Below are positions 13,125 to 57,247 of a stretch of 64,000 nt of DNA, piece after piece. The stretch lies in NCBI RefSeq assembly GCF_009914755.1, contig NC_060947.1; one strand, 5' to 3'. Position 1 is the stretch's first letter, and every line of letters starts with the position of its first letter. The stretch comes from the human T2T-CHM13v2.0 reference genome, Homo sapiens. A program made the translations under genes and the position numbers. A model generated the notes under the pieces. The model was not told the origin of the DNA. It did no database searches and worked only from the letters and a program-made list of their open reading frames with translations.

Positions 13125-14161
13125 ATGAGGAAAAAGCAGTGCAAAAAGGCTGAAAATTCCAAAAACCAGAATGCCTCTTCTCCTCCAAACGGTCCTCCAA
13201 AGGATCACAACTCCTCGCCAGTGAGGGAACAAAACTAAATGAAGAATGAGTTTGACGAATTGACAGAAGTAGGCTTCAGAAGGTGGGTAATAACAAACTC
13301 CTCTGAGCTAAAGGAGCATGTTCTAACCCAATGCAAGGAAGCTAAGAACATTGAAAAAAGGTTAGAGGAATTGCTAACTAGAACAATCAGTTTAGAGAAG
13401 AACATAATGACCTGATGGACCTGATGGATCAGAAGAACTTCGTGATGCATACACAAGTATCAATAACCAACTCAATCGAGTGGAAGAAAGGATATCAGAG
13501 ATTGAAGATCAACATAATGAAATAAAGCATGAAGACAAGATGAGAGAAAAAAGAATGAAAAGGAAAGAACAAAGCCTCCAAGAAATATGGCACTTTGTGA
13601 AAAGACCAAATCTACACTTGATTGGTGTACGTGAAAGTGACAGGGAGAATGGAAGCAGGTTGGAAAACACTCTTCAGGATATTATCCAGAAGAACTTCCC
13701 TAACCTAGCAAGACAGGCCAACATTCAAATTCAGGAAATACAGAGAACACCACAGAGATACTCTTCGAGAAGAGCAAACAACTCCAAGACACATAATTGT
13801 CAGATTCACCAAGGTTGAAATGAAGGACAAAATGTTAAGGGCAGCCAGAGAGAAGGGTCGGGTTTCTGACAAAGAGAAGCCCATGAGACTAACAGCAGAT
13901 CCCTCTGCAGAAACCCTACAAGCCATAAGAGAGTGGGAGGGTAATATTCAAAATTCTTAAAGAAAAGAATTTTCACCTAGAATTTCATATCCAGCCAAAT
14001 TAAGCGTCATAAGCAAAGGAGAAATAGAATCCTTTACAGACAAGCAAATGCTGAGAGATTTTGTCACCACCAGGCCTGCTGTACAAGAGGTCCTGAAGGA
14101 AGCACTAAATATGGAAAGGAAAAACCCGTACCAGCCACTGCAAAAACATACCAAATTGTAA
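13125..14161 (+). pseudogene. L1 ORF1p remnant (disrupted)
   Basis: ORF 13480-13818 contains RPNLHLIGV..ENTLQDIIQKNFPNLARQANIQIQEIQRTPQRY. Stops and frameshifts are present. Confidence 0.9.
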
Positions 14162-14224
14162 AGACCATTAACACTATGAAGAAACTGCATCAACTAACAT
14201 GCAAAATAACCAGCTAGCATCATA

Positions 14225-18059
<3,835 letters not shown>

Positions 18060-18459
18060 AAAATGAGAACACATGGACACAGGGAGGGGAACATCACACA
18101 CCGGGGCCTGTCGGGGGGTGGGGGGCTAGGGGAGGGATAGCATTAGGAGAAATACCTAATGTAGATGACGGGTTGATGGGTGCAGCAAACCACCATGGCA
18201 CGTGCATACAAATTTAACAAACCTGCACGTTCTGCATATGTATCCCAGAACTTAAAGTATAATTTTAAAAAAAACTGAGAAGTAAGGGGAAGGATCCTAC
18301 AGGCAAGGCAAATGGACAAATAACCTGCTTCTGTTTTCTCCCCCTTCTCATCCATCCTGTACATTGTTGCTGTGATAATTTTCCCAACACAACAATTTCA
18401 TTCAGACTTTCAAGGGCATTCAGCTCACTCTTCAGCCTCACTTGCAAGACAATGGTACA

Positions 18460-18695
18460 TACTGGCTAAGAGTGTAGGACTTAAAAAACTTGGTGGTTGA
18501 AGATATATGCTTCCACTACCTCATGAAACATCAGGAAAATTATAAAGTAATAGATGGAAACATACATACACACACACACACACATACAGAGAGAGAGGGA
18601 GAGTCAGGATAGGAGGAGACAGTAGAATCAAAATTTTAGAAGTTGGAAAGCAAAAGGACAGGTGATAACTGACTTAGCAAACACAAGAAACCTGA
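18460..18695 (+). mobile_element. Ancient L1M/HAL1-like 5' region, left part (continues at 24992-25790)
   Basis: Joined to 25003 onward, it is colinear with the related uninterrupted copy at ~55600-55900 ('aattttagaagttggaaagca..tgacttag..tgaaccttaagcagatagtag' vs 'aattttggaaattagaaagca..tgacttag..tgaatctcaaaccaacagtgg'). Confidence 0.6.
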
Positions 18696-18741
18696 TGGAG
18701 CCATAAAAAGGAAGGAGATCATGTCCTTTGTAGGGACATGG
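18696..18741 (+). mobile_element. 46-bp L1 3'-region fragment
   Basis: 'tggagccataaaaaggaaggagatcatgtcctttgtagggacatgg' matches L1 sequence at 24640-24686 and the equivalent at ~17927-17972. Confidence 0.85.
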
Positions 18742-19254
18742 TCTCAATCCAGATCTGCAGAGAGGGTTCTTGAATCTCACAGAAGAAAGAATTCAAGGTG
18801 AGTTGCAGAGTGCAGTGATAAGATATTGAAAGCTACACTGTTACAGAGTAGGGCATCCTCAGAAATTAAGAGAGGAATGCACTGTCTTCAAGCTTTTCTT
18901 ATATAAGTGTCCTGTCTATGCAAAGACTAAACTAAGCTGTGACTATGTGCAGGAGAGCAGACAGCATGAGAAAATTTATTATTCTGTTGATTTAAAGAAA
19001 ACTATCCTTGATATTTTAGTGGGTAAGTACATCAAAGAATAACTATAATTATTTTAAACCATGTATTGTCACGGGTATTGGGACATCTAGACTTTCTGCT
19101 ATTGTAGGTGTGTGTCCTTGTAGGTTTTCCTCAACTATAAACACTTTATAACCATGAATCATGGCTGGAACCGAAAGTGCCTTTTTAGTCTCAAGATGGA
19201 GCTGAACTTAAAACGGTGTCACTCTGGTTCTGCTAGGCTCCTGTTTCCCTAACA
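18740..19254 (-). mobile_element. ERV1 MER4-group solo LTR, left (3') terminus apparently clipped
   Basis: Minus strand begins 'tgttagggaaacaggagcctagcagaaccagagtgacacc'. The other end reads 'ggtctcaatccagatc..gagagggttcttgaatctc..aagaaagaattc' and lacks the expected terminal bases. Confidence 0.7.
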
Positions 19255-19306
19255 GATATTTTACTGAGGATGTCTAAGTAGCATATTAATCAATTCCATA
19301 TCATAT

Positions 19307-19830
19307 CATGGCAGATGCTGTTGGTTGCCTTTCCAAGAATTATTTTCTCTATGTATTTTTTTCTTCACTGATAGGAGCATGGTCTTGTCTAGGGAGGAAT
19401 GCACCCAATCCAAACAAATCATGACATGCCATTCCCATTGACCATTGACTGGTATAGAGATGGGTATATGTGAAACTGTTTTTGGCCATCTAGATGTAAG
19501 AGAAAGTTTATTTGGGGCCATACAGTTCTACCTTACAGAGAACTATATAAAACAGGGTTTGTTTGCCCTCTTCCTTCCCATTATACTTTGTATCTTGTTG
19601 TGTGAACATCTGGAGCTTCAGTAGACATCTTGTAACCAAGAGGCAATATGCCCAGGAATGGAAGAATAGAATTATGAAAAGAGCTTGGCTTGTGGACTAT
19701 GACTTTGAACACTCAAACTATGACTATCTTCTACCAGATTTCTTGTTCACTAAACAACTAATATATTCCTGGTTTAAACCACTGCTGGTTTGAGTTCTGT
19801 TACTTGCACTCAAAAACAGTACACACTGAA
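19307..19830 (+). mobile_element. Old MLT1-type MaLR LTR (MLT1J/K/L-like)
   Basis: Start 'tggcagatgctgttggttgcc' and end 'gtttaaaccactgctggtttgagttctgttacttgcactcaaaa'. Confidence 0.6.
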
Positions 19831-19989
19831 CAATTCCATTTTTATGTTTAACAGAAAACCCCACATCTATGGATATACATATGTTCCTTGTGGATCTTTT
19901 TGCTAATGTAAAAAGGTGAAAGAAAAATGGACAACTACCAGTTGAAGAATGACTGAAGACTATTACGCAACCATTAAGAAAATATTTTG

Positions 19990-20095
19990 GCGGTCACTTC
20001 AGCAGCATATATACTAAAATGGAATGGTAGAGAGAACATTAGCATGTCCCTTGCACAAAGATGACATGCAAATTCAGGAAGCATTCCTTATTTTT
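19990..20095 (+). pseudogene. RNU6: U6 snRNA retropseudogene, full length, fused to L1
   Basis: 'gcggtcacttcagcagcatatatactaaaatggaatggtagagagaacattagcatgtcccttgcacaaagatgacatgcaaattcaggaagcattccttattttt' is colinear with U6 and ends in T5. It joins directly to L1 ORF1 sequence at 20096. Confidence 0.95.
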
Positions 20096-20415
20096 CTTCA
20101 TAAGCGAATAAGAAAGTAAGATCCTTTTCAGACAAGCAAATGCTTAGTGAATTTTTCAACACCAGGCCTGCCTTGCAAGAGCTCCTGAAGGAAGCACTGA
20201 ATATGGAAAGGAAAAACCACTACCAGCCATTATAAAAACACACTGAATTACACAGACCAGTGACACCATGAAGCAACCACATAAACAAGCCTGCAAAATA
20301 ACCAGCTAGCATCATGATGACAGGATCAAATTCACACACAAAAATACTAACCTTAAATGTAAATGGACTAAATGTCCCAATTAAAAGGCACAGACGGCAA
20401 GCTTGATAGAGTCAT

Positions 20416-21745
20416 TGTGTCTGGAATTGGTGGGTTCTTGGTCTCACTGACTTAAAGAATGAAGCCGTGGACCCTCGTGGTGAGTGTTACAGTTCTTAAA
20501 GATGGTGTGTCTGGAGTTTGTTCCTTCTGATGTTCAGATGTGTCCGGAATTTCTCCCTTTTGGTGGGTTCGTTGTCTCACTGACTTCAGGAGTGAAGCCA
20601 CAGACCTTCGCAGTGAGTGTTACAGCTCTTAAAGGCAGCGCGTCCAGAGTTGTTCATTTCTCCCGGTGGGTTTGTGGTCTCGCTGGCTTCAGGAGTAAAG
20701 CTGCAGACCTTCAGAGGTGAGTGTTACAGCACATAAAGGTAGTGTGGACCCAAAGAGTGAACAGCAGCAAGATTTATTGTGAAGAGCAAAAGAACAAAGC
20801 TTCCACAGCATGGAATGGGACCACAGCGGGTTGCCGCTGCTGGCTCGGGTGGCCTACTTTTATTCCCTTATCCGGCCCCACTCACATCCTGCTGATTGGT
20901 CCACTTTACAGAGAGCTGATTGGTCCACTTTACAGAGAGCTGATTGGTCCATTTTACAGAGAGCTGATTGGTCCGTTTTACAGAGAGCTGATTGGTCCAT
21001 TTTGACAGAGTGCTGATTGGTGCATTTACAAACCTTTAGCTAGACACAGAGTGCTGATTGGTGCGTTTACAATCTTTAGCTAAACAGAAAAGTTCTCCAA
21101 GTCCCCAGCCAATTAGCTAGACACAGAGCACTGATTGGTGTGTTTACAAACCTTTAGCTAGACATAGAGTGCTGATTGGTGCGTTTACAATCCTTTAGCT
21201 AGACAGAAAAGTTCTCCAAGTCCCCACCCATCCCAGAAGCTCAGCCAGCCTCACCTCTCACTGGCATTCACCACGGGACTTTGAGGCACCTAGCCTGAGG
21301 GAGCTCATCCAGACAGCAGCCCAGCAGCCGAGAGGGCTCCAGAGGGCTCCAGCAGCCCAGAGGGAGCTCATCCCAGACAATCAAGAGGAAAAGAGGGGAA
21401 GTGAGAAAGAGACGGAGACCTGCTATCGTGGCCAACGGTCCCACGAGGAGGGAACAGTGGTCCACACACAGGATTCAGCCTCTGATCAAGCCCAGCAGGC
21501 CCATGCTCACCTGGAACCTGCGCTGGCCTGTGAGCGCTGCGTGCAGCCCCGGCTCCCACCCACACCTCTCTCTTCACACTTCCCCGTGAGCAGAGAGAGC
21601 CAGCTCCGGCCTCGGCCAGCCCCAGAGAGGGGCCCTCGTAGGGCAGCGGTGGGCTGAAGGGCTCCTCAAGCACGGCCAGAGCAGACGCCAAGGTCGAGGA
21701 GGCACTGAGAGCGAGCGAGGGCTGCTAGCATGTTGTCACCTCTCA
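20416..21745 (-). mobile_element. LTR12 (ERV9) solo LTR
   Basis: Minus strand starts 'tgagaggtgacaacatgctagcagcc' and ends 'ccaattccagacaca'. Tandem 'gctgattggt' (CCAAT on minus) repeats. 4-bp TSD tcat at 20412-20415 / 21746-21749. Confidence 0.95.
20888..21182 (-). promoter_or_regulatory. LTR12 tandem CCAAT (NF-Y) promoter/enhancer array
   Basis: Repeated 'ctgattgg' units next to the TATA-like 'aataaaag' (plus strand 'cttttatt', ~20857-20864). This is the known LTR12 promoter architecture, directing transcription leftward. Confidence 0.7.
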
Positions 21746-23896
21746 TCATGACCCATTGGTATGCTGTCTTCAAGAGACCCATCTCACATGCAAAGACACA
21801 CATAGGCTCAAAATAAAGGGATGGAGGAAATTTTATCAAGCAGATGGAAAACAGAGAAAAGCAGGTGTTGCAATCCTAATTTCTGACAAAACAGATTTTA
21901 AACCAACAAAGTTCAAAAAAGACAAAGAAGGGCATTACATAATGGTAAAAGGTTCAATTCAACAAGAAGAGCTAATTATCTTATATATGCACCCAATATG
22001 GGAGCACCCAGGTTAATAAAGCAACTTCTTAGAGACCTACAAAGAGCCTTAGACTCCCACACAATAATATTGGGAGACTTTAACACCTCAATGTCAATAT
22101 TAGATCATTGAGACACAAAATTAACAAAGATATTTAAAACCTGAGCTCAGCTCTGAATCAAATGGAGCTGATAGGTGTCTACAGAACTCTCCACCCAAAT
22201 TCAACAGAATATACATCTTCTCATTGCCACATGGCACTTACTCTAAAATTGATCACATAATCAGAAGTAAAACACTCCTCATCAAATGCAAAATAACTGA
22301 AATCCTAACAGTCTCTCAGACCACAGTGCAATCAAATTAGAACTCAAGATTAAGAAATTGACTCAAAATAACACAATTACATGGAAATTGAAAAACCTTC
22401 TCCTGAATGACACTTGGGTAAATAATAAAATTAAGCAGAAATCAAGAAATTCTTTGAGACTAATGAGAAAAAAGAGACAATGTACCAGAATCCCTGGGAT
22501 GCAGCTAAAGCAGTGTTAAGAGGGAAATTTATAGTACTAAATGCCCACATCAAAAAGCTAGAAATATCTCAAGTTAACAACCTAACATCTCAACTAAAAG
22601 AACTAGAGAAGCAAGAGCAAACAAACCCCAAAGCTAGCAGAAGACAAGAATTAACTAGGATCAGAGCTGAACTGAAGGAGATAGAGACACAAAAAACCCT
22701 TCAAAATAACAACAAAACCAGGAGCTGGTTTTTTGAAAAGGTTAATAAAATAGACAGACCACTAGCTAAACGAATAAAGAAGAAAAGAGAGAAGATGCAA
22801 ATAAACACAATCAGAAATGATAAGGGGGATATCACCACTGACCCCACAGAAATACGAACAGCCATCAGAGAATACTATAAACACCTCTATGCACATAAAC
22901 TAGAAAATCTAGAATAAATGGATAAACTCCTGGACACATACACCCTCCCAAGACTGAAACAGGAAGAAATTGAATCCCTGAATAGACCAATAATGAGTTC
23001 TGAAATTGAGGCAGTAATAAATAGCCTATCAACCAGAAAAAGCCCAGGACCAGATGGATTCACAGCTGAATTTTACCAGAGGTACAAAGAAGAGCTGGCA
23101 TCATTTATACTAAAACAAATTTTAAAAATTGTAGGGACTCCTCCCTAACTCGTTTTATGAGGCCAGCATCATCCTGATATCAAAACCTGGCAGAGGCACA
23201 GTGAAAAAAGAACACTTCAGGCCAATATCCTAGATGAACATAGATGCAAAAATCCTCAATAAAATACTGGCAAACAAAATCCAGCAGCACATCAAATAGT
23301 TTATCCACCATGATCAAGTTGGCTTCATCCCCAGGATGCAAGGTTGGTTCAACATACACAAATCAATAAATGTGATTCATCAAATAAACAGATCTAAAGA
23401 CAAAAACCACATGATTATATCAATAGATGCAGAAAATGCCTTTGATAAACTTCAACATCCTTTCATGTTAAAAGCTCTCAATAAACTAGGTATTGAAGGA
23501 ACATACCTCAAAATAAAGAGGGCCATATATGACAACCCACAGCCAACAGCACACTGAATGGGCAAAAGCTGGAAGCATTCCCTTCGAAAACCAGCACAAG
23601 ACAAGAATGCCCTCTCTCACCATTCCTATTCAACCTAGTATTGGGAGTTCTGGCCAGGGCAATCAGGCAATAGAAAGAAATAAAGCATATTCAAATAGGA
23701 AGAGAGGAAGTCAAACTATCTTTTTTGCAGATGACATGATGCTATATCTAGAAAACTCCATTGTCTCAGCCCAAAAGCTTCTTAAGCTGATAAGCAACTT
23801 CAGCAAGTTACAGGATATAAAATCAATGTACAAAAACAGCTAGCATTCTTATACACCAACAACAGGCAAGCAGCGAGCCAAATCATGAATGAACTT

Positions 23897-24240
23897 CATA
23901 TATGAAACATATATGAAAACATACGTGTATGAAACATATATGAAAAACATACGTGCATGAAACATATATGAAAACATATGTGTATGAAGCATATATGAAA
24001 ACATACATGTATGAAACATATATGAAAACATACGTGTGTGGAACATATATGAAAAACACGTGTATGAAACATATGAAACACATACATGTATGAAACATAT
24101 ATTAAAAACATATGTGTATGAAACATATATGAAAAACATACGTGTATGAAACATGAAAAACATACGTGTATGAAACATATGAAAAACATACATGTATGAA
24201 ACATATATGAAAAACATATATAAAAAACAATATATGAAAA
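23897..24240 (+). repeat. AT-rich minisatellite (~27-28-bp unit, tatgaaacatatatgaaaaacatacgtg) at an L1 ORF2 deletion junction
   Basis: About 12 degenerate copies between L1 'aatcatgaatgaact' and L1 'aaaaaagctc.acatcactgatc'. Confidence 0.9.
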
Positions 24241-24991
24241 AAGCTCGACATCACTGATCATTAGAGAAATGCAAATCAAAACCACACTGAGATACCATCT
24301 CACACCAGTCATAATGGCTATTTTTTAAAAAGTCAAAAAACAACAAACACAGATGCTGGCAAGGTTGTGGAGAAAAAGGAACACTTTTACATTGTTGGTG
24401 GGAGTGTGAATTAGTTCAACTATTGTGAAAGACAGTGTGATGATTCCTCAAAGACCTAGAGGCAGAAATACCATTTGACCCAGCAATCCCATTACTGGAT
24501 ATACACCCTAAGGAATATAAATCATTCTATTATAAAGATACATGCAAACGTGTTCATTGCAGCACTGTTCACAATAGCAAAGACATGGAATCAACCTAAA
24601 TGTCCATAAATGGTAGACTGGATAAAGAAAATGTGGTTATGCAGCCATAAAAAAGGAATGAGATGATGTCCTTTGCAGGGACATGGGTCAAGTTGGAAGC
24701 CATTATCCTCAGCAAACTAACGCAGGAACAGAAAACCAAACACCACGTGTTCTCACTTATAAGTGGGAGCTGAACAACGTGAACACATGGACACAGGGAG
24801 GGGAACAACACACAATGGGACCTGTTGGTGGGTGGGTAGGGGAGGGAGACCATTAGGAAAAATACCTAATGCGTGCAGGGCTTAATACCTAGGTGATGGA
24901 TTGATAGGTGGAGCAAACCACCATGGCACACGTTTACCTTTGTAACAAACCTGCACATCCTGCACCAGTACCCCAGAACTTAAAATTTAAA

Positions 24992-25790
24992 AAGTAACCT
25001 GAACCTTAAGCAGATAGTAGGGGAAACCAAGAAACAACATGACTTGTACTGAAGAGTCTCCTTAAATCCCAGGAACTGACTGTACCAAGTACCTCTGGAA
25101 AGAGGGGGGAAGAAGAGGTTGAAAACAGCAGTGCTTGAAAGTCTGAACATCTGGAGTCTCAGATGTATACTCCTTTGATCCCTGGCTGTGTGGTTGACTA
25201 CTGTTCCCCAAACTCATCAGAGGACCAAAGGTATAGCCTGTGTAGAAGATAAAACATATGTCTGGACTAGAGAATATGAAGCATAGATGAAGGTGGAGAT
25301 ACCATATCGAAAACTGGGATTAAGTAAAATTCTCTGAGCACTGACTATTGACACCTTAAACCTTCTTCATCAACTGGGATCCCAAAACACTAGATTGTAC
25401 ATTCCAGGCAGGAGATGGGAGGATGTCTCTCTGCAGGATATTACTAGCACAAGAAGAAAAATCTAAAAACACTGAGTCTAAAGGTACTGACAATCAGGGG
25501 TTCCCCAAAGAAACAGTGCAACTATACCATTGGCAGTGAACCCTACAGCCCAAAAACCCTACCCACATGCTCAACGTTGCTAGTAATCTTTTTAGTATCT
25601 CCCTCATAACTATGAATGGACACCTAAAGATCACAGACATCTGGAGAAACTCTGACATGAGAGAAATCAAAACAAGCAAACAGAGGTGAATAACCTGAAA
25701 AAGAGAGTGATGATTCAGGAAGATGACAACTTCAAAAACAAAAACAAAAAAATCATACACATTAATGTGCCCAGCATCACAATAATGGAA
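24992..25790 (+). mobile_element. Ancient L1M/HAL1-like 5' region, right part
   Basis: Colinear with the related element at 55600-57360 (e.g. 'tacctctggaa', 'cagacatctggagaaactctgacatga' vs 'cagacatttgtggaacacttccaacatga'). Confidence 0.55.
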
Positions 25791-25879
25791 ACACTGAATA
25801 TTGTTCTAACCAATGCGTAGTGAGGAGAGAGAAAAGAAGAAACAGGAAGTGTGATTGTTTGGGGAGTACAGGCAGTGGT

Positions 25880-28800
25880 TGCATAGAGTGAATTAGAAAG
25901 CTTTTCATTTTTGTTATATGACTAGCACAATTTGCATAGCATTACAATGATATGTCTATTGTAGATTTGATGGAACTCTACTGTAAAATCATCTGAGTCA
26001 GATACATGGTAAGGGTAAAATTTTTGAATATCTTTTCCTATTCTTATATTGTTATTTTCCTATTCAAACTTTCTACTATTTCTTCAGGTATTTTCTGTAA
26101 TCATGAGTTTAAATGTAGGGTATAAAATTGTACATATAGAATTCTTCTTACAAATTTTAAAATATGCTCCATATATTTAATTCTGCTTTCTCATTCTTAA
26201 CTTTACTTGGGTGTTTGCTCTTTTTTTCATAATCACACTTGTCAAGTTTTTTTTTCTTGTTCTTTCCAAAACCAAATTTCAGTTTTGTTGATTTATTTAA
26301 TGTATTGTTGGCTTGTCTTACTGTTTTCTATAGCATTATCTGTATCAGCTCTTTCTGATTTCTTTGGGCATATTTTTTCTATTAATTTTCTAGTTTGTTG
26401 AATTAAGCACTTAATTTTTTCCCAATATTTACTGTTTTGTAATACATATGTTTAAAGCTGTACCTTGTCCTCTGAGTACATCTTTGAAGCATTTCATGGG
26501 TTTGAATATATACTACAATAACTGTTTTTCATTTTTAAATAAGTTATAATTTGAGTTTTTATTTCTTTTTTTTTAAATCCAAGAGTTATTTAGAAGGGTG
26601 TCATTTCACTCCCTGATTGTGATGGATAGGACAACCTCCTCCCCCAATCTCCCTGCAAAGATGTCCATGTCTTAATCCCTAGAAACTGTTACATTACATG
26701 GCAAAAGGGTCTTTGCAGATGTGATTGTCAACTATCTTAAGATAGGGAGGGCCCAATATAATCTCAAGAGTCCTTAAAAGATGAAAGAGAAAGGCAGCAG
26801 AGTCAGAGAAAGAGATAAGGCAATACAGAGTGATGAGGGTAACCTCTAGAAACTGGAAAAGACAAAAAAAGAATTTTCCCCTAGAGCCTCCAGAAAAAAC
26901 AGAGATCTGTTGACACTTGATTTTAGCCTCATAAGATCTACTTCTGATTTCTGATCTCCAAATAATACATTTACGTTGTTTTAAATCACTAAGTGTGGGG
27001 CAATTTCTTACAGCTATAATAAGAAACTAATATATAGATTAATTTTATTACTGTCTTTTTATTAAATTTTTGATTTTGCTTCTGTGTTAAGAGAAAATGA
27101 CTTGCTTAACTTCTGCTTTGGAGAATGTGTTCTTTTCCTTTGTGGCCATATTCATTATCAATCTTTGTAAATCTTTTCCTGAAAAAGATGTGAAGTCCTT
27201 CTTTGATGGATGTATGTGTGGATATGTATTATAGATATAGATATACATATAAATATAGATATGTATATAATATATATCTTAGTTGACAAGATACATATAT
27301 ATTCTCTTGAAAGATAATAGATTGTACTAATATACTAATATAAGATAGATCTCTATGTCTCATTTAATTGTTATATATATATATATACCACATTTAGCAT
27401 TTGGCCTTAAGTTATATCTAGTATTGATATGTGCTTTTTTAAAACATGCATTTGCCTGGTGTTTATTTCCCTATCTCTTTATTTTCAAATTCTCTGTGTC
27501 ATTTAATTCATTTGGCTTATTTCTAGTATATTTCTTTATGGTATATAAAGAAATTATACCATACCATATTGTTAGAAGGGGAGTTGTGTTTAACTCTATT
27601 TAAATGTCTGTCTTTTTCTTTGAATCAGGGAATTTAACCCATACATATTTATATGATTAATGATGCTCTATTTTATGTCTTATATTTACCTTTCTTTCCT
27701 TATTTTTTTCTTTTCCACTTCTATTCCCATTCTTTTCCTTACCTTCCCCTCCCTTTTACTTTCTTGCACTTTGTTGGCTTTTTCTTTTTTGCCCCTATGC
27801 AGCTTTGTTACATTCCTATTTCTATTATTTTAGTGGCTACCCTTAAACTGTTAATAAATATTAAAAATTAACATTTTCCTTCTTCATGTACAATTAACAG
27901 GTATCTATACACTTCCCCTGAAAAAGATGAGATCTTTAGCACTCCATTACCCTTTCAGCCTGCCCTGTCCATCTTCCATATTATAGTGATCTGGAAAATT
28001 AGTTCTAGGGATTTTTTTTAAGTTATGCATCAACTGTTATTTAAGCATATATATAAGTATTTCTAGCCTCTTCGTGTACTTTTGTTTCTTGCATTTCCAA
28101 TTTTCTGCCTTGGATTTATTTTTCATTTTGCTACAGTAGCTTCTTGAGTAATTTTTTTCAGTGAAGTCTGCAGGGAATAACTTTCTGACTCTCTCCATGT
28201 CTGAAGGAATCCTTATTTTGCCTCACTATAGTGTTAGCTTGACTAGATACAGAATTGTAAGTTAAAAAATGGTTTTCCCTCAGGACTTTGAAGGTATTGC
28301 TTCTTTTTCTCCTTATACAAATCTGATTTTTACTCCTTTGGACAAAATTTTCTTTCTGGCTCTGTCTCCGTAGAAGCTTCTGGAATTTTCTTTTACCCTT
28401 GGAGTTATGAAATACATAAGAATATGCCCAGATGTGGGTCATTTATTATTCTTCTTGGTCAGCATTGGATAAATCTCTTTATTCAGAAAATTCCTTTTTT
28501 AAGCTTGGGAACCATTTTTCTGTTTTATTATTTATTTGATTATTTCTCCCCTCTTACTATGTTGTCTCTTATTAGATTAAACTTCTAGGATTGATTGACA
28601 ACATCTCTTAACTTTTATCTCAAATTTTCATCTCTTTAGCTTGTAGGAGATCTTCGTTTGTTGGTTTCTAGATTTCATTTTTTTAAATCCTTGACTTTAT
28701 TCTCCAGAGCCCCAATTTGCTCTTCAATCATGCACATTCTATTATTTAATACTTCTCTTGCATTTTTCTTATTTTGCTAAAAAGATAATTTCCAAGAACT

Positions 28801-36755: not shown

Positions 36756-38300
36756 AGCTAATTTTTGTATAAGTTATAAGGAAAGGGTCCAGTTTCTGTA
36801 TTCTACATATGGCTAGCCAGTTTTCCCAGCACCATTTATTAAATAGGGAATCCTTTCCCCATTGCTTGTTTTTGTCAGGTTTGTCGAAGATCAGATGGTT
36901 GTAGATATGTGGTGTTATTTCTGAGGCCTCTGTTCTGTTCCATTGGTCTATATATCTGTTTTGGTAACAGTACCATGCTGTTTTGGTTACTGTAGCCTTG
37001 TAGTATAGTTTGAAGTCAGGTAGTGTGATGCCTCCAGCTTTGTTCTTTTTGCTTAGGATTGTCTTGGCTATATGGGCTCTTTTTTGGTGCCATATGAAAT
37101 CTAAAGTAGTTTTTTCTAGTTCTGTGAAGAAAGTCAATGGTAGCTTGATGGGAATAGCATTGAATCTATACATTGCTTTGGGCAGTATGGCCATTTTCAC
37201 AATATTGATTCTTCCTATCCATGAGCATGGAATGTTTTCCCATTTGTTTGTGTCCTCTCTTATTTCCTTGAGCAGTGGTTTGTGGTTCTCCTTGAAGAGG
37301 TCCTTCACATCCCTTGTAAGTTGGATTCCTAGGTATTTTATTCTCTTTGTAGCAATTGTGAATGGGAGGTCACTCATGATTTGGCTGTCTGTTTGTGTAT
37401 TATTGGTGTAGAGGAATGCTTGTGATTTTTGCACATTGATTTTGTATCCTGAGACTTTGCTGAAGTTGCTTATCAGCTTAATGAGTTTTTGGGCTCGTGA
37501 TCACTGGTCATTAGAGAAATGCAAATCAAAACCACAATGAGATACCATCTCACACCAGTTAGAATGGCGATCATTAAAAAGTCAGGAAACAACAGATGCT
37601 GGAGAGGATTTGGACAAATAGGAATGCTTTTAGACTCTTGATGGGAGTGTAATTTAGTTCAACCATTGTGGAAGACAGTTTGGCGATTCCTCCAGGATCT
37701 AGAACCAGAAATACCATTTGACCCAGCAATATCACTACTGGGTATATACCCAAAGGATTATAAATCATTCTACTATAAAGATACATGCACACGTATCTTT
37801 ACTGCGGCACTATTCACAATAGCAAAGACTTGGAACCAACCCAAATGCCCATCAATGATAGACTGGATAAAGAAAATGTGGCACATATACACCATGAAAT
37901 ACTATGCAGCCCTAAAAAAGGATGAGTTCATGTCCTTTGCTGGGACATGGATGAAGCTGGAAACCATCATTCTCAGCAAACTAACACAGGAACAGAAAAC
38001 CAAACACTGCATGTTCTCACTCATAAGCAGGAGTTGAACAATTAGAACATGTGGACACAGGGAGGGGAACATCACACACCAGGGCCTGTCAGGGGGTGGG
38101 GGGCACGAGGAAGGAGAGCATTAGGACAAATACCTAATGCATGCTGGGCTTAAAACCTAGATGACGGGTTGACGGGTACAGCAAACCACCATGGTACATG
38201 TATACCTATGTAACAAACCTGCACGTTCTGCCCATGTATCTCAGAACTTAAAGTATAAATACATACATACATACATACATACATACATACATACATACAT
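36756..38300 (+). mobile_element. 5'-inverted (twin-primed) truncated LINE-1, L1PA8-like
   Basis: Inverted ORF2 segment ~36756-37497 (ORF 36727-37434, minus) joined to a sense 3' segment ~37498-38260. The tail is (ACAT)n. TSD acattacatg at 36746-36755 / 38301-38310. Confidence 0.93.
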
Positions 38301-55485: not shown

Positions 55486-56202
55486 TATGTAGATTTCTAT
55501 TTATTGACATGGAAAAAATATAAATATTCACTAGAATTTGATGATAAAAGCAGATTATAGAACAGTCTGTATAGCATGAGCTCATTTAAAAATATAAATG
55601 TGTGGGCCTTCTGAGTAAAGATGATGGATTGAACACCTACATTTGCTTTTACTTCCCCCTGAAACTCCACTAAAACAACAATAAAAAGATATTTTAAAAA
55701 GTGCAAACTGATGAGGAAAAAATAACTGGGGGGGGAGGAACAGCAACAGAATTTTGGAAATTAGAAAGCATTTGAATGGTGACTTAGTAGAATGAAGTTG
55801 AATCTCAAACCAACAGTGGTTGGTAAGCAAATTTACAATGCAGAACTCCCATCCTTTATGATAAACTAATTAGCAGACATGGATACCTCTGGAAGGGATG
55901 AAAGAAAATATCACTAGAAAGTTTATTTAGGAAGCAGTTAAAGCTCCATATTCTTTCCCCAACCCCAGCAGGAGTTAGTTTATTTTCTGAAGAGAATAAA
56001 ATAAAGTGTCTCCAGACATAGTCACCAGACACAGTTGTGGACTGATGGTGCTGTGCTAATAGTGGATGGATTCGGTTAATGCCAAGATCTCCAGCTCCTT
56101 TTCCCTACTTAGTTTCCAGAGTTGTATTTGCCTGGTTTATAATCTTCCAGGAAGGAATTTGGGAGCAATCTGAGTAGCCCAAGAAGAGAGACATAACGGT
56201 AC

Positions 56203-56719: not shown

Positions 56720-57247
56720 CCTTCCTGTGTCCATGTGTTCTCGTTGTTCAATTCCAACCTATGAGTGAGAACATGCAGTGTTTGGTTTTGCGGTGTTTGG
56801 TTTTTTGTCCTTGCGATAGTTTGCTGAGAATGATGATTTCCAGTTTCATCCATGTCCCTACAAAGGACATGAACTCATCATTTTTTATGGCTGCATAGTA
56901 TTCCATGGTGTATATGTGCCACATTTTCTTAATCCAGTCTATCGTTGTTGGACATTTGGGTTGTTCCCAAGTCTTTGCTATGGTGAATAGTGCCGCAATA
57001 AACATACGTGTGCATGTGTCTTTATAGCAGCATGATTTATAGTCCTTTGGGTATATACCCAGTAATTGGATGACTGTTGTGGGGTGGGGGGAGGGGGGAG
57101 GGATAGCATTAGGAGATATACCTAACGCTAAATGACGAGTTAATGGGTGCAGTACACCAACATGGCACATGTATACCTATGTAACAAACCTGCACATTGT
57201 GCACATGTACCCTAAAACTTAAAGTATAATAATAATAAAATTAAAAA
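56720..57247 (+). mobile_element. Short 5'-inverted (twin-primed) LINE-1, L1PA3/4-like
   Basis: Inverted segment ~56720-57072, then the sense 3'UTR from ~57073 to the A-tail. Perfect 18-bp TSD aaaaattagcagatatcc (56702-56719 / 57248-57265). Confidence 0.95.

What the first reader, a model, noticed from the sequence alone, without database searches (positions are those of the whole stretch)
18685..25002. A 6.3-kb composite insertion: a U6/L1 chimera apparently copied here together with ~1.3 kb of its original flank
Seen: an ancient L1M/HAL1-like element is split between 18695 and 24992, and the split is bounded by a direct repeat aagaaacctga/aagtaacctga (10/11 match). A related copy at ~55740-55830 reads straight across the same point. 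Between the repeats lie, in order: a 46-bp L1 3' fragment, a clipped ERV1 LTR joined by 'gg' microhomology, an old MLT1 LTR, unique DNA, U6, and L1 with its A-tail. U6 is preceded by its own L1-endonuclease-like site (tt|aagaaaatattttg), but that sequence is not repeated after the A-tail. Inference: the chimera formed elsewhere and was moved a second time. Model (a): a break in a resident short L1 was repaired by one-sided invasion of the donor's L1 3' end, copying past U6 into its flank, then microhomology joining. Model (b): a read-through transcript was retrotransposed (5' transduction) with a template switch back to the L1 3' end. A U6/L1 chimera lacks the L1 promoter, so a second-generation copy would be unusual.
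Basis: partly seen in the sequence, partly recalled or inferred. Interest (0 to 1): 0.82.

Follow-up and report, generated by a model that had tools for sequence, protein, structure and literature searches.

The report
Four-part U6/L1 composite insertion, source missing
A 6.3-kb block on human chrX, holding a scrap of L1, 1.25 kb of ordinary DNA, a U6 pseudogene and a long L1, entered an old repeat as one insertion with a target-site duplication, but the DNA it should have been copied from is nowhere else in the genome.

Summary
Window 18696-24991 (6296 bp) is one insertion bounded by an 11-bp duplication (10 of 11 match). It splits an old interspersed repeat that other genomic copies read straight across (5 of 5 collinear; 15 of 21 span the point).

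Inside, all directly joined, are:
- 46 bp of L1
- an LTR lacking about 15 bp of one end
- about 730 bp of single-copy DNA
- a full-length U6 (Rfam 71.6 bits)
- a 5'-truncated L1 with a short A-tail

The L1 was later hit by a solo LTR with its own 4-bp duplication. A 27-bp minisatellite now stands where about 1 kb of L1 is missing.

T2T-CHM13 has no paralogue of the 1.25-kb passenger, no second U6/L1 with this junction, and no L1 that stands out as parent.

My odds:
- retrocopy of a read-through RNA carrying an older U6/L1: about 0.35
- one event with three template jumps: about 0.25
- break repair copying from a donor: about 0.2
- physical capture of a DNA fragment: about 0.1

All copy models need a source that is now lost. 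Primate orthologues would decide; none are available here. This is a real, unusual variant of known L1 chimeras, of moderate interest.

The parts
18504..18695 (+). Left part of an old interspersed repeat ('M'; family not determined)
   Evidence: Aligns to 5 other genomic copies. The match to the uninterrupted copy L031 ends exactly at 18695. No protein-level likeness to L1 ORFs, so the 'L1M/HAL1' label is untested.
18685..18695 (+). 5' copy of the target-site duplication, AAGAAACCTGA
   Evidence: Present once in uninterrupted copies L031 and L020. The preceding bases give AC|AAGAAA, a tolerable L1 endonuclease site.
18696..18741 (+). 46-bp L1 fragment, from about 310-357 bp before an L1 3' end, same orientation as the main L1
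   Evidence: 89% over 47 columns to 24640-24686; also matches L1s at 56850-56895, 37905-37950 and 17934-17972. Differs at 3 of 46 positions from the majority of 29 related L1 ends.
18742..19256 (.). LTR of an old ERV family, lacking about 15 bp of one terminus; the other terminus is complete at 19256
   Evidence: 421 genomic candidates, 40 scored, best other copy 79%. All 11 aligned copies run about 14-17 bp beyond the window copy's start, and GG is shared with the L1 piece at the joint. Class (ERV1) and orientation were not tested.
19257..19989 (.). Single-copy DNA; the last 14 bp (19976-19989, AAGAAAATATTTTG, preceded by TT) look like an L1 endonuclease site and an old 5' duplication for the U6/L1
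   Evidence: Only a self-match in the whole genome. Nothing significant in 289 kb of sampled DNA. No Pfam match on its two longest frames. The 14-mer is unique in the window at 0 mismatches and absent near the tail.
19990..20095 (+). Full-length U6 snRNA pseudogene (RNU6-382P)
   Evidence: Rfam RF00026, 71.6 bits against a gathering score of 44, model positions 1-105 of 105.
20096..20405 (+). L1 'Y', first piece (end of ORF1 and start of ORF2), fused directly to U6
   Evidence: All 39 non-self matches begin at query 197-199, i.e. 20096-20098, at 88-90%. Maps to the upstream L1 at 14007-14306.
20406..21741 (.). Later solo LTR inside L1 Y (LTR12/HERV9-like by recall), flanked by a TCAT duplication
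   Evidence: 5509 candidates; matches cover about 20414-21746; paired copies about 7 kb apart elsewhere. TG...CA ends and TCAT on both sides. 24-bp tandem repeats.
21746..23895 (+). L1 Y, ORF2 body (endonuclease and reverse transcriptase remnants)
   Evidence: 83% to the upstream L1 at 14327-16500. Pfam Exo_endo_phos E=3.3e-4 and RVT_1 E=1.2e-7 on open fragments.
23901..24241 (+). 27-bp x 12.7 minisatellite standing where about 1 kb of L1 is missing
   Evidence: TRF score 463. L1 collinearity jumps from 16500 to 17511 of the reference L1.
24238..24991 (+). L1 Y 3' end with a short A-tail
   Evidence: 79% to the upstream L1 at 17511-18262. Best other genomic copies 82-85%. Has a 20-bp internal deletion after 24637, of a kind seen in 13 of 29 relatives.
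24992..25002 (+). 3' copy of the target-site duplication, AAGTAACCTGA
25003..25473 (+). Right part of the old repeat M
   Evidence: Collinear alignments to L031, L020, L023 and L032.

Best explanation
One L1 (ORF2p) target-primed reverse transcription event at AC|AAGAAACCTGA, inside an old repeat, inserted a composite cDNA of about 5 kb.

The template was most likely a polyadenylated read-through RNA from another locus. That locus already held a U6/L1 chimera, which had itself inserted at TT|AAGAAAATATTTTG, together with at least 1.25 kb of its upstream flank. The RNA ended at the L1's own poly(A) site, so the donor's 3' duplication was not copied.

Reverse transcription ran through the L1, U6 and the flank into an LTR. 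It then jumped, on a GG microhomology, to an L1 RNA for 46 nt before the cDNA was joined to the target. Alternatively, the donor already carried that L1/LTR joint.

Later a solo LTR and a minisatellite altered the L1.

Shown: the single duplication around all the parts, their direct fusion, the matching orientation of the parts whose orientation could be read (the 46-bp L1 piece, U6 and the main L1), and the later date of the inner LTR. Inferred: the RNA route, the donor, and the final jump.
For: - An 11-bp duplication sits exactly where an otherwise continuous repeat is interrupted.
- The right end is an L1 3' end plus A-tail abutting the duplication. The 11 bp fall in the usual L1 range, and the site is A-rich after the nick.
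- U6 is full-length and fused directly to the L1 at 20095/20096.
- A perfect endonuclease-type site with a 14-bp would-be duplication abuts the U6 5' end. Chance is about 7% (626 of 9115 positions).
- The 14-mer is absent after the tail, as expected if polyadenylation cut the RNA before the donor's 3' duplication.
- The LTR is older than the L1 (74-79% against 82-90% pairwise), so it travelled as a passenger.
- There are no AATAAA or ATTAAA signals on the + strand of 18742-20095. This is weak: P about 0.17-0.21.
- 5' transductions enclosed by one duplication are in print (PMC13174262, passages read).
Against: - No source locus exists in T2T-CHM13. 19250-19989 gives a self-match only. The LTR's best other copy is 79% with unrelated flanks. 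No second U6/L1 has this junction (40 of 5498 candidates scored). No L1 3' end stands out as parent (best 85%, no outlier, 40 of 14003 scored). A donor should be at least about 82% identical and so detectable, which means it must have been deleted.
- Nothing explains why the passenger L1 should happen to be a rare U6/L1 chimera.
- The extra 46-nt L1 piece needs a further jump, or a special donor structure.
- Trans-mobilisation of a 5-kb unspliced RNA is inefficient by established knowledge.
- U6/L1 chimeras 'usually do not further self-propagate' (PMC13174262, section 10, passage read).
Confidence: 0.35

Rival explanations
1. A single TPRT event with three successive template jumps: L1 RNA, then U6 snRNA, then a 1.25-kb fragment of some Pol II transcript, then 46 nt of L1 RNA. 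This would be a four-part chimera made on the spot, so the U6/L1 is first-generation.
For: - All four parts are fused directly, with one duplication around the whole. The three parts whose orientation could be read share it.
- U6 itself marks a jump-prone or ligation-prone event, so its presence needs no coincidence.
- Only the 1.25-kb source needs to be missing, not a 5-kb donor.
- No parental U6/L1 exists.
- Printed precedent: two mouse B2-U6-L1 chimeras with 15-16-bp direct repeats, and two human tripartite candidates (PMC2104539, passages read).
Against: - The endonuclease-type site TT|AAGAAAATATTTTG abutting U6 would be a coincidence of about 7%.
- In the catalogues I read (PMC2104539, PMC13174262), the 5' partners are mostly small abundant RNAs, SINEs or spliced exons, not 1.25 kb of unspliced single-copy RNA.
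- Three jumps in one event have no precedent in the papers read.
- The source of the 1.25 kb is still missing.
Confidence: 0.25
2. A short 5'-truncated L1 (about 350 bp) first inserted here with the 11-bp duplication. A later break 46 bp into it was repaired by invading the L1 3' region of a U6/L1 elsewhere and copying leftwards for about 5 kb through U6 into the flank. The end was then joined on GG microhomology. A two-ended conversion is also possible if the donor already carried an L1/LTR joint.
For: - The 46-bp piece and the L1 3' end fit the two ends of one short L1 of the same subfamily. They show 3 of 46 and 2 of 47 differences from the majority of 29 relatives.
- The GG overlap and the clipped LTR look like end joining.
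- This model explains both the missing 3' duplication of the U6/L1 and the endonuclease-type site before U6.
- Coupled homologous and non-homologous repair of one break is established in mammalian cells (recalled; not read here).
Against: - No donor in the genome.
- No switch in divergence along 24240-24991 that would mark a crossover. The test has little power, because both L1s are of the same subfamily.
- A conversion tract of about 5 kb ending in non-homology is rare.
- That the donor L1 is a U6/L1 chimera is an unexplained coincidence.
Confidence: 0.2
3. The passenger DNA was moved, not copied. During a break-prone L1 integration (or other break repair), a free genomic fragment carrying LTR, single-copy DNA and possibly the U6/L1 was captured between the two target ends, and its place of origin was sealed with a deletion.
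For: - It is the only class of model that predicts the absence of any source copy.
- Both joints of the 1.25-kb piece touch L1-derived sequence.
- L1-associated rearrangements are known (recalled).
Against: - No direct evidence.
- Intact 11-bp duplication and otherwise unperturbed flanks.
- Needs two extra breaks elsewhere.
- Capture of kilobase-sized chromosomal fragments without a retained copy is, to my knowledge, not documented for germline L1 events.
Confidence: 0.1

Closest known systems
U6/L1 chimeric pseudogenes (Doucet et al. 2015, PMC4476161; Law & Burns 2026, PMC13174262)
   Same: Full-length U6 in sense orientation fused directly to a 5'-truncated L1 with an A-tail. An L1 endonuclease-type site lies just upstream of U6.
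   Different: The target-site duplication does not abut U6. It lies 1.29 kb upstream, beyond a 46-bp L1 piece, a clipped LTR and single-copy DNA. The sequence next to U6 is not repeated after the tail.
Tripartite template-switch chimeras, e.g. mouse B2-U6-L1 with 15-16-bp direct repeats (Gogvadze et al. 2007, PMC2104539)
   Same: Something is fused to the 5' end of U6, which is fused to L1. All readable parts are in sense orientation and one duplication surrounds the whole.
   Different: There are four parts, not three. The part next to U6 is 1.25 kb of non-repeat DNA with no source locus, not a SINE or small RNA.
L1 5' transduction / co-opted upstream transcripts (Law & Burns 2026, PMC13174262, sections 13-14)
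   Same: Upstream non-L1 sequence and L1 are enclosed by one duplication at an endonuclease-type site.
   Different: The published cases are mostly near full-length L1s with spliced exons whose source genes are identified. Here the L1 is 5'-truncated behind a U6, the flank is unspliced, and no source is found.
Chimeric L1s and break-repair outcomes of L1 integration, and coupled homologous/non-homologous break repair (recalled: Gilbert 2002/2005, Symer 2002, Richardson & Jasin 2000; not read here)
   Same: One homologous joint in L1 and one microhomology joint, as in model (a).
   Different: Those cases usually delete target DNA or involve a nearby resident L1. Here the target is intact with a clean duplication, and the copied flank has no donor.

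Membership tests
L1 ORF2p target-primed insertion | Short (about 7-20 bp) target-site duplication flanking the whole insert | tested here: met
   11 bp, 10 of 11 identical, present once in uninterrupted copies.
L1 ORF2p target-primed insertion | Insertion at a TT|AAAA-like site | tested here: inconclusive
   The site is AC|AAGAAA: A-rich after the nick but not TT before it.
L1 ORF2p target-primed insertion | 3' end is a poly(A) tail next to the 3' duplication | tested here: met
   L1 3' end followed by about 5 A, then the duplication. The tail is short.
U6/L1 chimeric pseudogene (first generation) | Full-length sense U6 fused directly to a 5'-truncated L1 | tested here: met
   Rfam positions 1-105 of 105 end at 20095; L1 homology starts at 20096.
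U6/L1 chimeric pseudogene (first generation) | Duplication abuts the U6 5' end and the L1 tail | tested here: not met
   The 14-mer before U6 has no counterpart after the tail. The real duplication lies 1294 bp upstream of U6.
Multipartite template-switch chimera | Parts in one orientation, fused without filler, with one duplication | tested here: met
   The orientation of the 1.25-kb part cannot be defined.
Multipartite template-switch chimera | Each part is a copy of a cellular RNA whose gene exists elsewhere | tested here: not met
   No source for 18742-19989 in the genome.
L1 5' transduction / retrocopy of a read-through RNA | A source locus with the same flank upstream of the same L1 | tested here: not met
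   Only one human assembly was searched.
Break repair by ectopic copying (model a) | A resident short L1 at the site in lineages that predate the event | not testable with these tools
   No other primate genome is held (header: no relatives).
Break repair by ectopic copying (model a) | A donor paralogue | tested here: not met

The most novel reading that the evidence does not exclude
The 1.25-kb passenger, perhaps with the U6/L1, was physically moved rather than copied. A genomic fragment was captured at an L1-made break and its original site sealed. That would explain why a complete human genome holds no source copy.
Probability: 0.1. Interest if true: 0.65.

Novelty: new variant of a known kind. 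Interest (0 to 1): 0.4.

Why it matters
U6/L1 chimeras are used as clean markers of single L1 events and are said not to propagate further. This locus is one of three things:
- a rare second-generation copy of such a chimera with its flank;
- a four-part product of repeated template jumping that includes over a kilobase of ordinary RNA;
- a DNA-level capture.

Each would widen what L1 integration or L1-homology repair can carry. The missing source in a gap-free genome is a concrete puzzle that primate T2T assemblies could solve quickly. It has no evident bearing on the FMR1 gene, which lies about 80 kb away.

Tried and rejected
- **Donor search in the window's own genome** with four queries: no paralogue.
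- **Parent L1 surviving as a recombined hybrid at the donor:** no outlier among L1 3' ends (best 85%, pack 82-85%).
- **Mosaic test for a crossover in the L1 3' end**: divergence from the majority of 29 relatives is 12.3% (24240-24640, indels counted), 4.3% (24641-24686) and 9.0% (24687-24991). There is no clear switch, and power is low.
- **Coincidence of the 46-bp piece's start with a 20-bp deletion in the main L1:** rejected as meaningful, because 13 of 29 relatives have gaps there.
- **Poly(A)-signal depletion in the passenger:** not significant (0 observed, 1.8-2.4 expected).
- **Canonical splicing at the L1/LTR joint:** rejected by eye, since no GT/AG lies at the joint.
- **Twin priming:** rejected, because the 46-bp piece is in the same orientation as the L1.
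- **Simple deletions, inversions or unequal exchange between two L1s:** rejected on paper, because none leaves both halves of repeat M with a duplication around the block.
- **L1M/HAL1 identity of the flanking repeat:** tblastx against L1s gave nothing within 25003-25800. The only hits were at 25883-26100 on the other strand and beyond 26300.
- **MLT1 identity of 19300-19800:** no support.
- **Published tables:** this locus was not found at hg38 chrX 147.81-147.84 Mb in the four spreadsheet supplements of PMC13174262. The coordinate conversion rests on a recalled FMR1 position, and the PDF supplements could not be read.

Full report
**What is there.** The window is human chrX (T2T-CHM13), about 80 kb upstream of FMR1. 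Between 18696 and 24991 lies a 6296-bp block bounded by AAGAAACCTGA (18685-18695) and AAGTAACCTGA (24992-25002). The 11-mer alone is not rare: 4 matches at up to 1 mismatch in the window against 3.1 expected. What gives it weight is its position.

**The flanks are one repeat.** The DNA on either side consists of adjacent parts of a single old interspersed repeat.
- A genome search with the left flank found other copies.
- In all 5 that I examined, the left and right flanks align collinearly.
- In L031 and L020 the two alignments overlap on one copy of the 11-mer.
- In L023 and L032 the spacing is within 1-3 bp of that expected.
- In L030 the order is right but the spacing is 143 bp off.
- Using the uninterrupted L031 copy as query, 15 of 21 other genomic matches span the insertion point by at least 13 bp on each side, and 6 stop 1-15 bp short of it. 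The window's own match stops exactly at 18695.

I could not confirm that this repeat is an L1M or HAL1.

**Anatomy of the block, 5' to 3'.**
1. 18696-18741: 46 bp of L1 from about 310-357 bp before an L1 3' end, in the same orientation as the main L1. It is 89% identical to 24640-24686.
2. 18742-19256: an LTR of an old family. There are 421 candidates, and the best other copy is 79%. All 11 aligned copies continue about 14-17 bp beyond where the window copy begins, the far end is complete, and GG is shared at the joint.
3. 19257-19989: DNA that matches nothing else in the genome or in 289 kb of sampled sequence. The 'MLT1' label is therefore unverified.
4. 19990-20095: a full-length U6 (Rfam 71.6 bits), preceded by TT|AAGAAAATATTTTG.
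5. 20096-24991: a 5'-truncated L1 fused directly to U6, with endonuclease and RT remnants and a tail of about 5 A.

**Later changes inside the L1.**
- A solo LTR at 20406-21741 has TG...CA ends and a TCAT duplication. It belongs to a younger, abundant family (83-89% pairwise) whose members occur as pairs about 7 kb apart.
- A 27-bp x 12.7 minisatellite at 23901-24241 stands where about 1 kb of L1 is missing.

Without the inner LTR the block was about 5 kb.

**Donor test.** The complete genome that holds the window does not contain one.
- 19250-19989 finds only itself (one candidate).
- The LTR's best partner is 79%, no better than ordinary family members, and the flanks of the 11 best copies are unrelated.
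- None of the 39 best non-self matches to 19900-20404 crosses the U6-L1 junction. All begin at 20096-20098 (40 of 5498 candidates scored).
- The L1 3' end has no stand-out relative: best 85%, the pack at 82-85% (40 of 14003 scored).

The L1 differs by about 9-12% from the majority of its closest relatives. A donor should therefore be at least about 82% identical, within the range this search recovers, since it found LTR copies at 74%. Caveats: only the best candidates are scored, very common words are skipped, withheld stretches read N, and only one human assembly was searched.

**Mechanism.** The right boundary (L1 3' end, A-tail, duplication beginning AAG) and the 11-bp length are the marks of target-primed reverse transcription. 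Four readings remain.

(i) *Retrocopy of a read-through RNA.* A polyadenylated RNA from a locus that already held the U6/L1 and its flank was retrocopied, and the cDNA finished with a 46-nt jump to L1 RNA.
- For: the endonuclease-type site with a 14-bp would-be duplication abutting U6. Chance is about 7% (626 of 9115 positions; the hexamer set is recalled). The 14-mer is also absent after the tail.
- Against: it is an unexplained coincidence that the passenger L1 is a rare chimera.

(ii) *Three template jumps in one event:* L1, then U6, then 1.25 kb of some transcript, then L1.
- For: U6 needs no coincidence, a smaller source has to be missing, and there is a printed precedent. That precedent is two mouse B2-U6-L1 chimeras with 15-16-bp direct repeats plus two human tripartite candidates (PMC2104539, passages read).
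- Against: the site before U6 would be chance.

- For: the two L1 ends are of one subfamily. They show 3 of 46 and 2 of 47 differences from the majority.
- Against: the crossover test has no power.

(iv) *Physical capture of a DNA fragment.* This is the only reading that predicts the missing source, but it has no direct support.

I put these at about 0.35, 0.25, 0.2 and 0.1. Readings (i) to (iii) all require that the source was deleted later. I looked for a hybrid L1 left behind by recombination at a donor and found no candidate.

**Minor tests that did not help.**
- The absence of poly(A) signals in 18742-20095 is not significant.
- The 46-bp piece starts within 2 bp of a 20-bp deletion in the main L1, but 13 of 29 relatives have gaps there.

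**Literature.**
[quoted passage not shown] They describe 17 5' transductions, mostly of near full-length L1s with spliced exons.
- I did not find this locus in their tables at hg38 chrX 147.81-147.84 Mb. That coordinate rests on a recalled FMR1 position, and their PDF supplements could not be read.
- In Doucet et al. 2015 (PMC4476161; passages found by term search only), the searched terms gave no mention of remobilised chimeras ('remobiliz' 0 occurrences; the single 'transduction' hit was in the reference list).
- Searches returned no paper on a re-mobilised U6/L1. This is not proof that none exists.

**Verdict.** The idea of a second-generation copy is plausible but failed its own proposed test in this genome, and a one-step multi-jump origin is about as likely. 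This is an unusual variant of known L1 chimeras, and primate comparisons could resolve it.

Noticed in passing
window 20406-21741: Solo LTR (LTR12/HERV9-like by recall) inside the L1, with a TCAT duplication and 24-bp tandem repeats carrying CCAAT-type motifs at 20891-21027. The family has thousands of candidates and proviral pairs about 7 kb apart.
   Followed up: partly
window 23901-24241: A 27-bp minisatellite (12.7 copies, 85% matches) occupies the place of about 1 kb of L1 ORF2. It seems to have grown from an A-rich L1 motif next to the deletion.
   Followed up: partly
window about 14007-18282: A separate, longer primate L1 in the same orientation ends about 400 bp upstream of the insertion. 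It is not the source of the 46-bp piece (81-85% identity).
   Followed up: partly
window 18556-18605: A (CA)n/(GA)n microsatellite inside the left part of the old repeat. It accounts for most low-value genome hits to the left flank.
   Followed up: no
L031 (G000:C2:69673831-69674231) and G000:C2:69751319-69751702: The uninterrupted reference copy of the old repeat has a 93% identical inverted twin about 77 kb away on the same chromosome. This implies a segmental duplication there.
   Followed up: no
window 25883-26100, minus strand: Weak protein-level likeness to L1 ORF2 (tblastx E about 6e-7), probably an old reverse-oriented L1 fragment just beyond the right flank.
   Followed up: no
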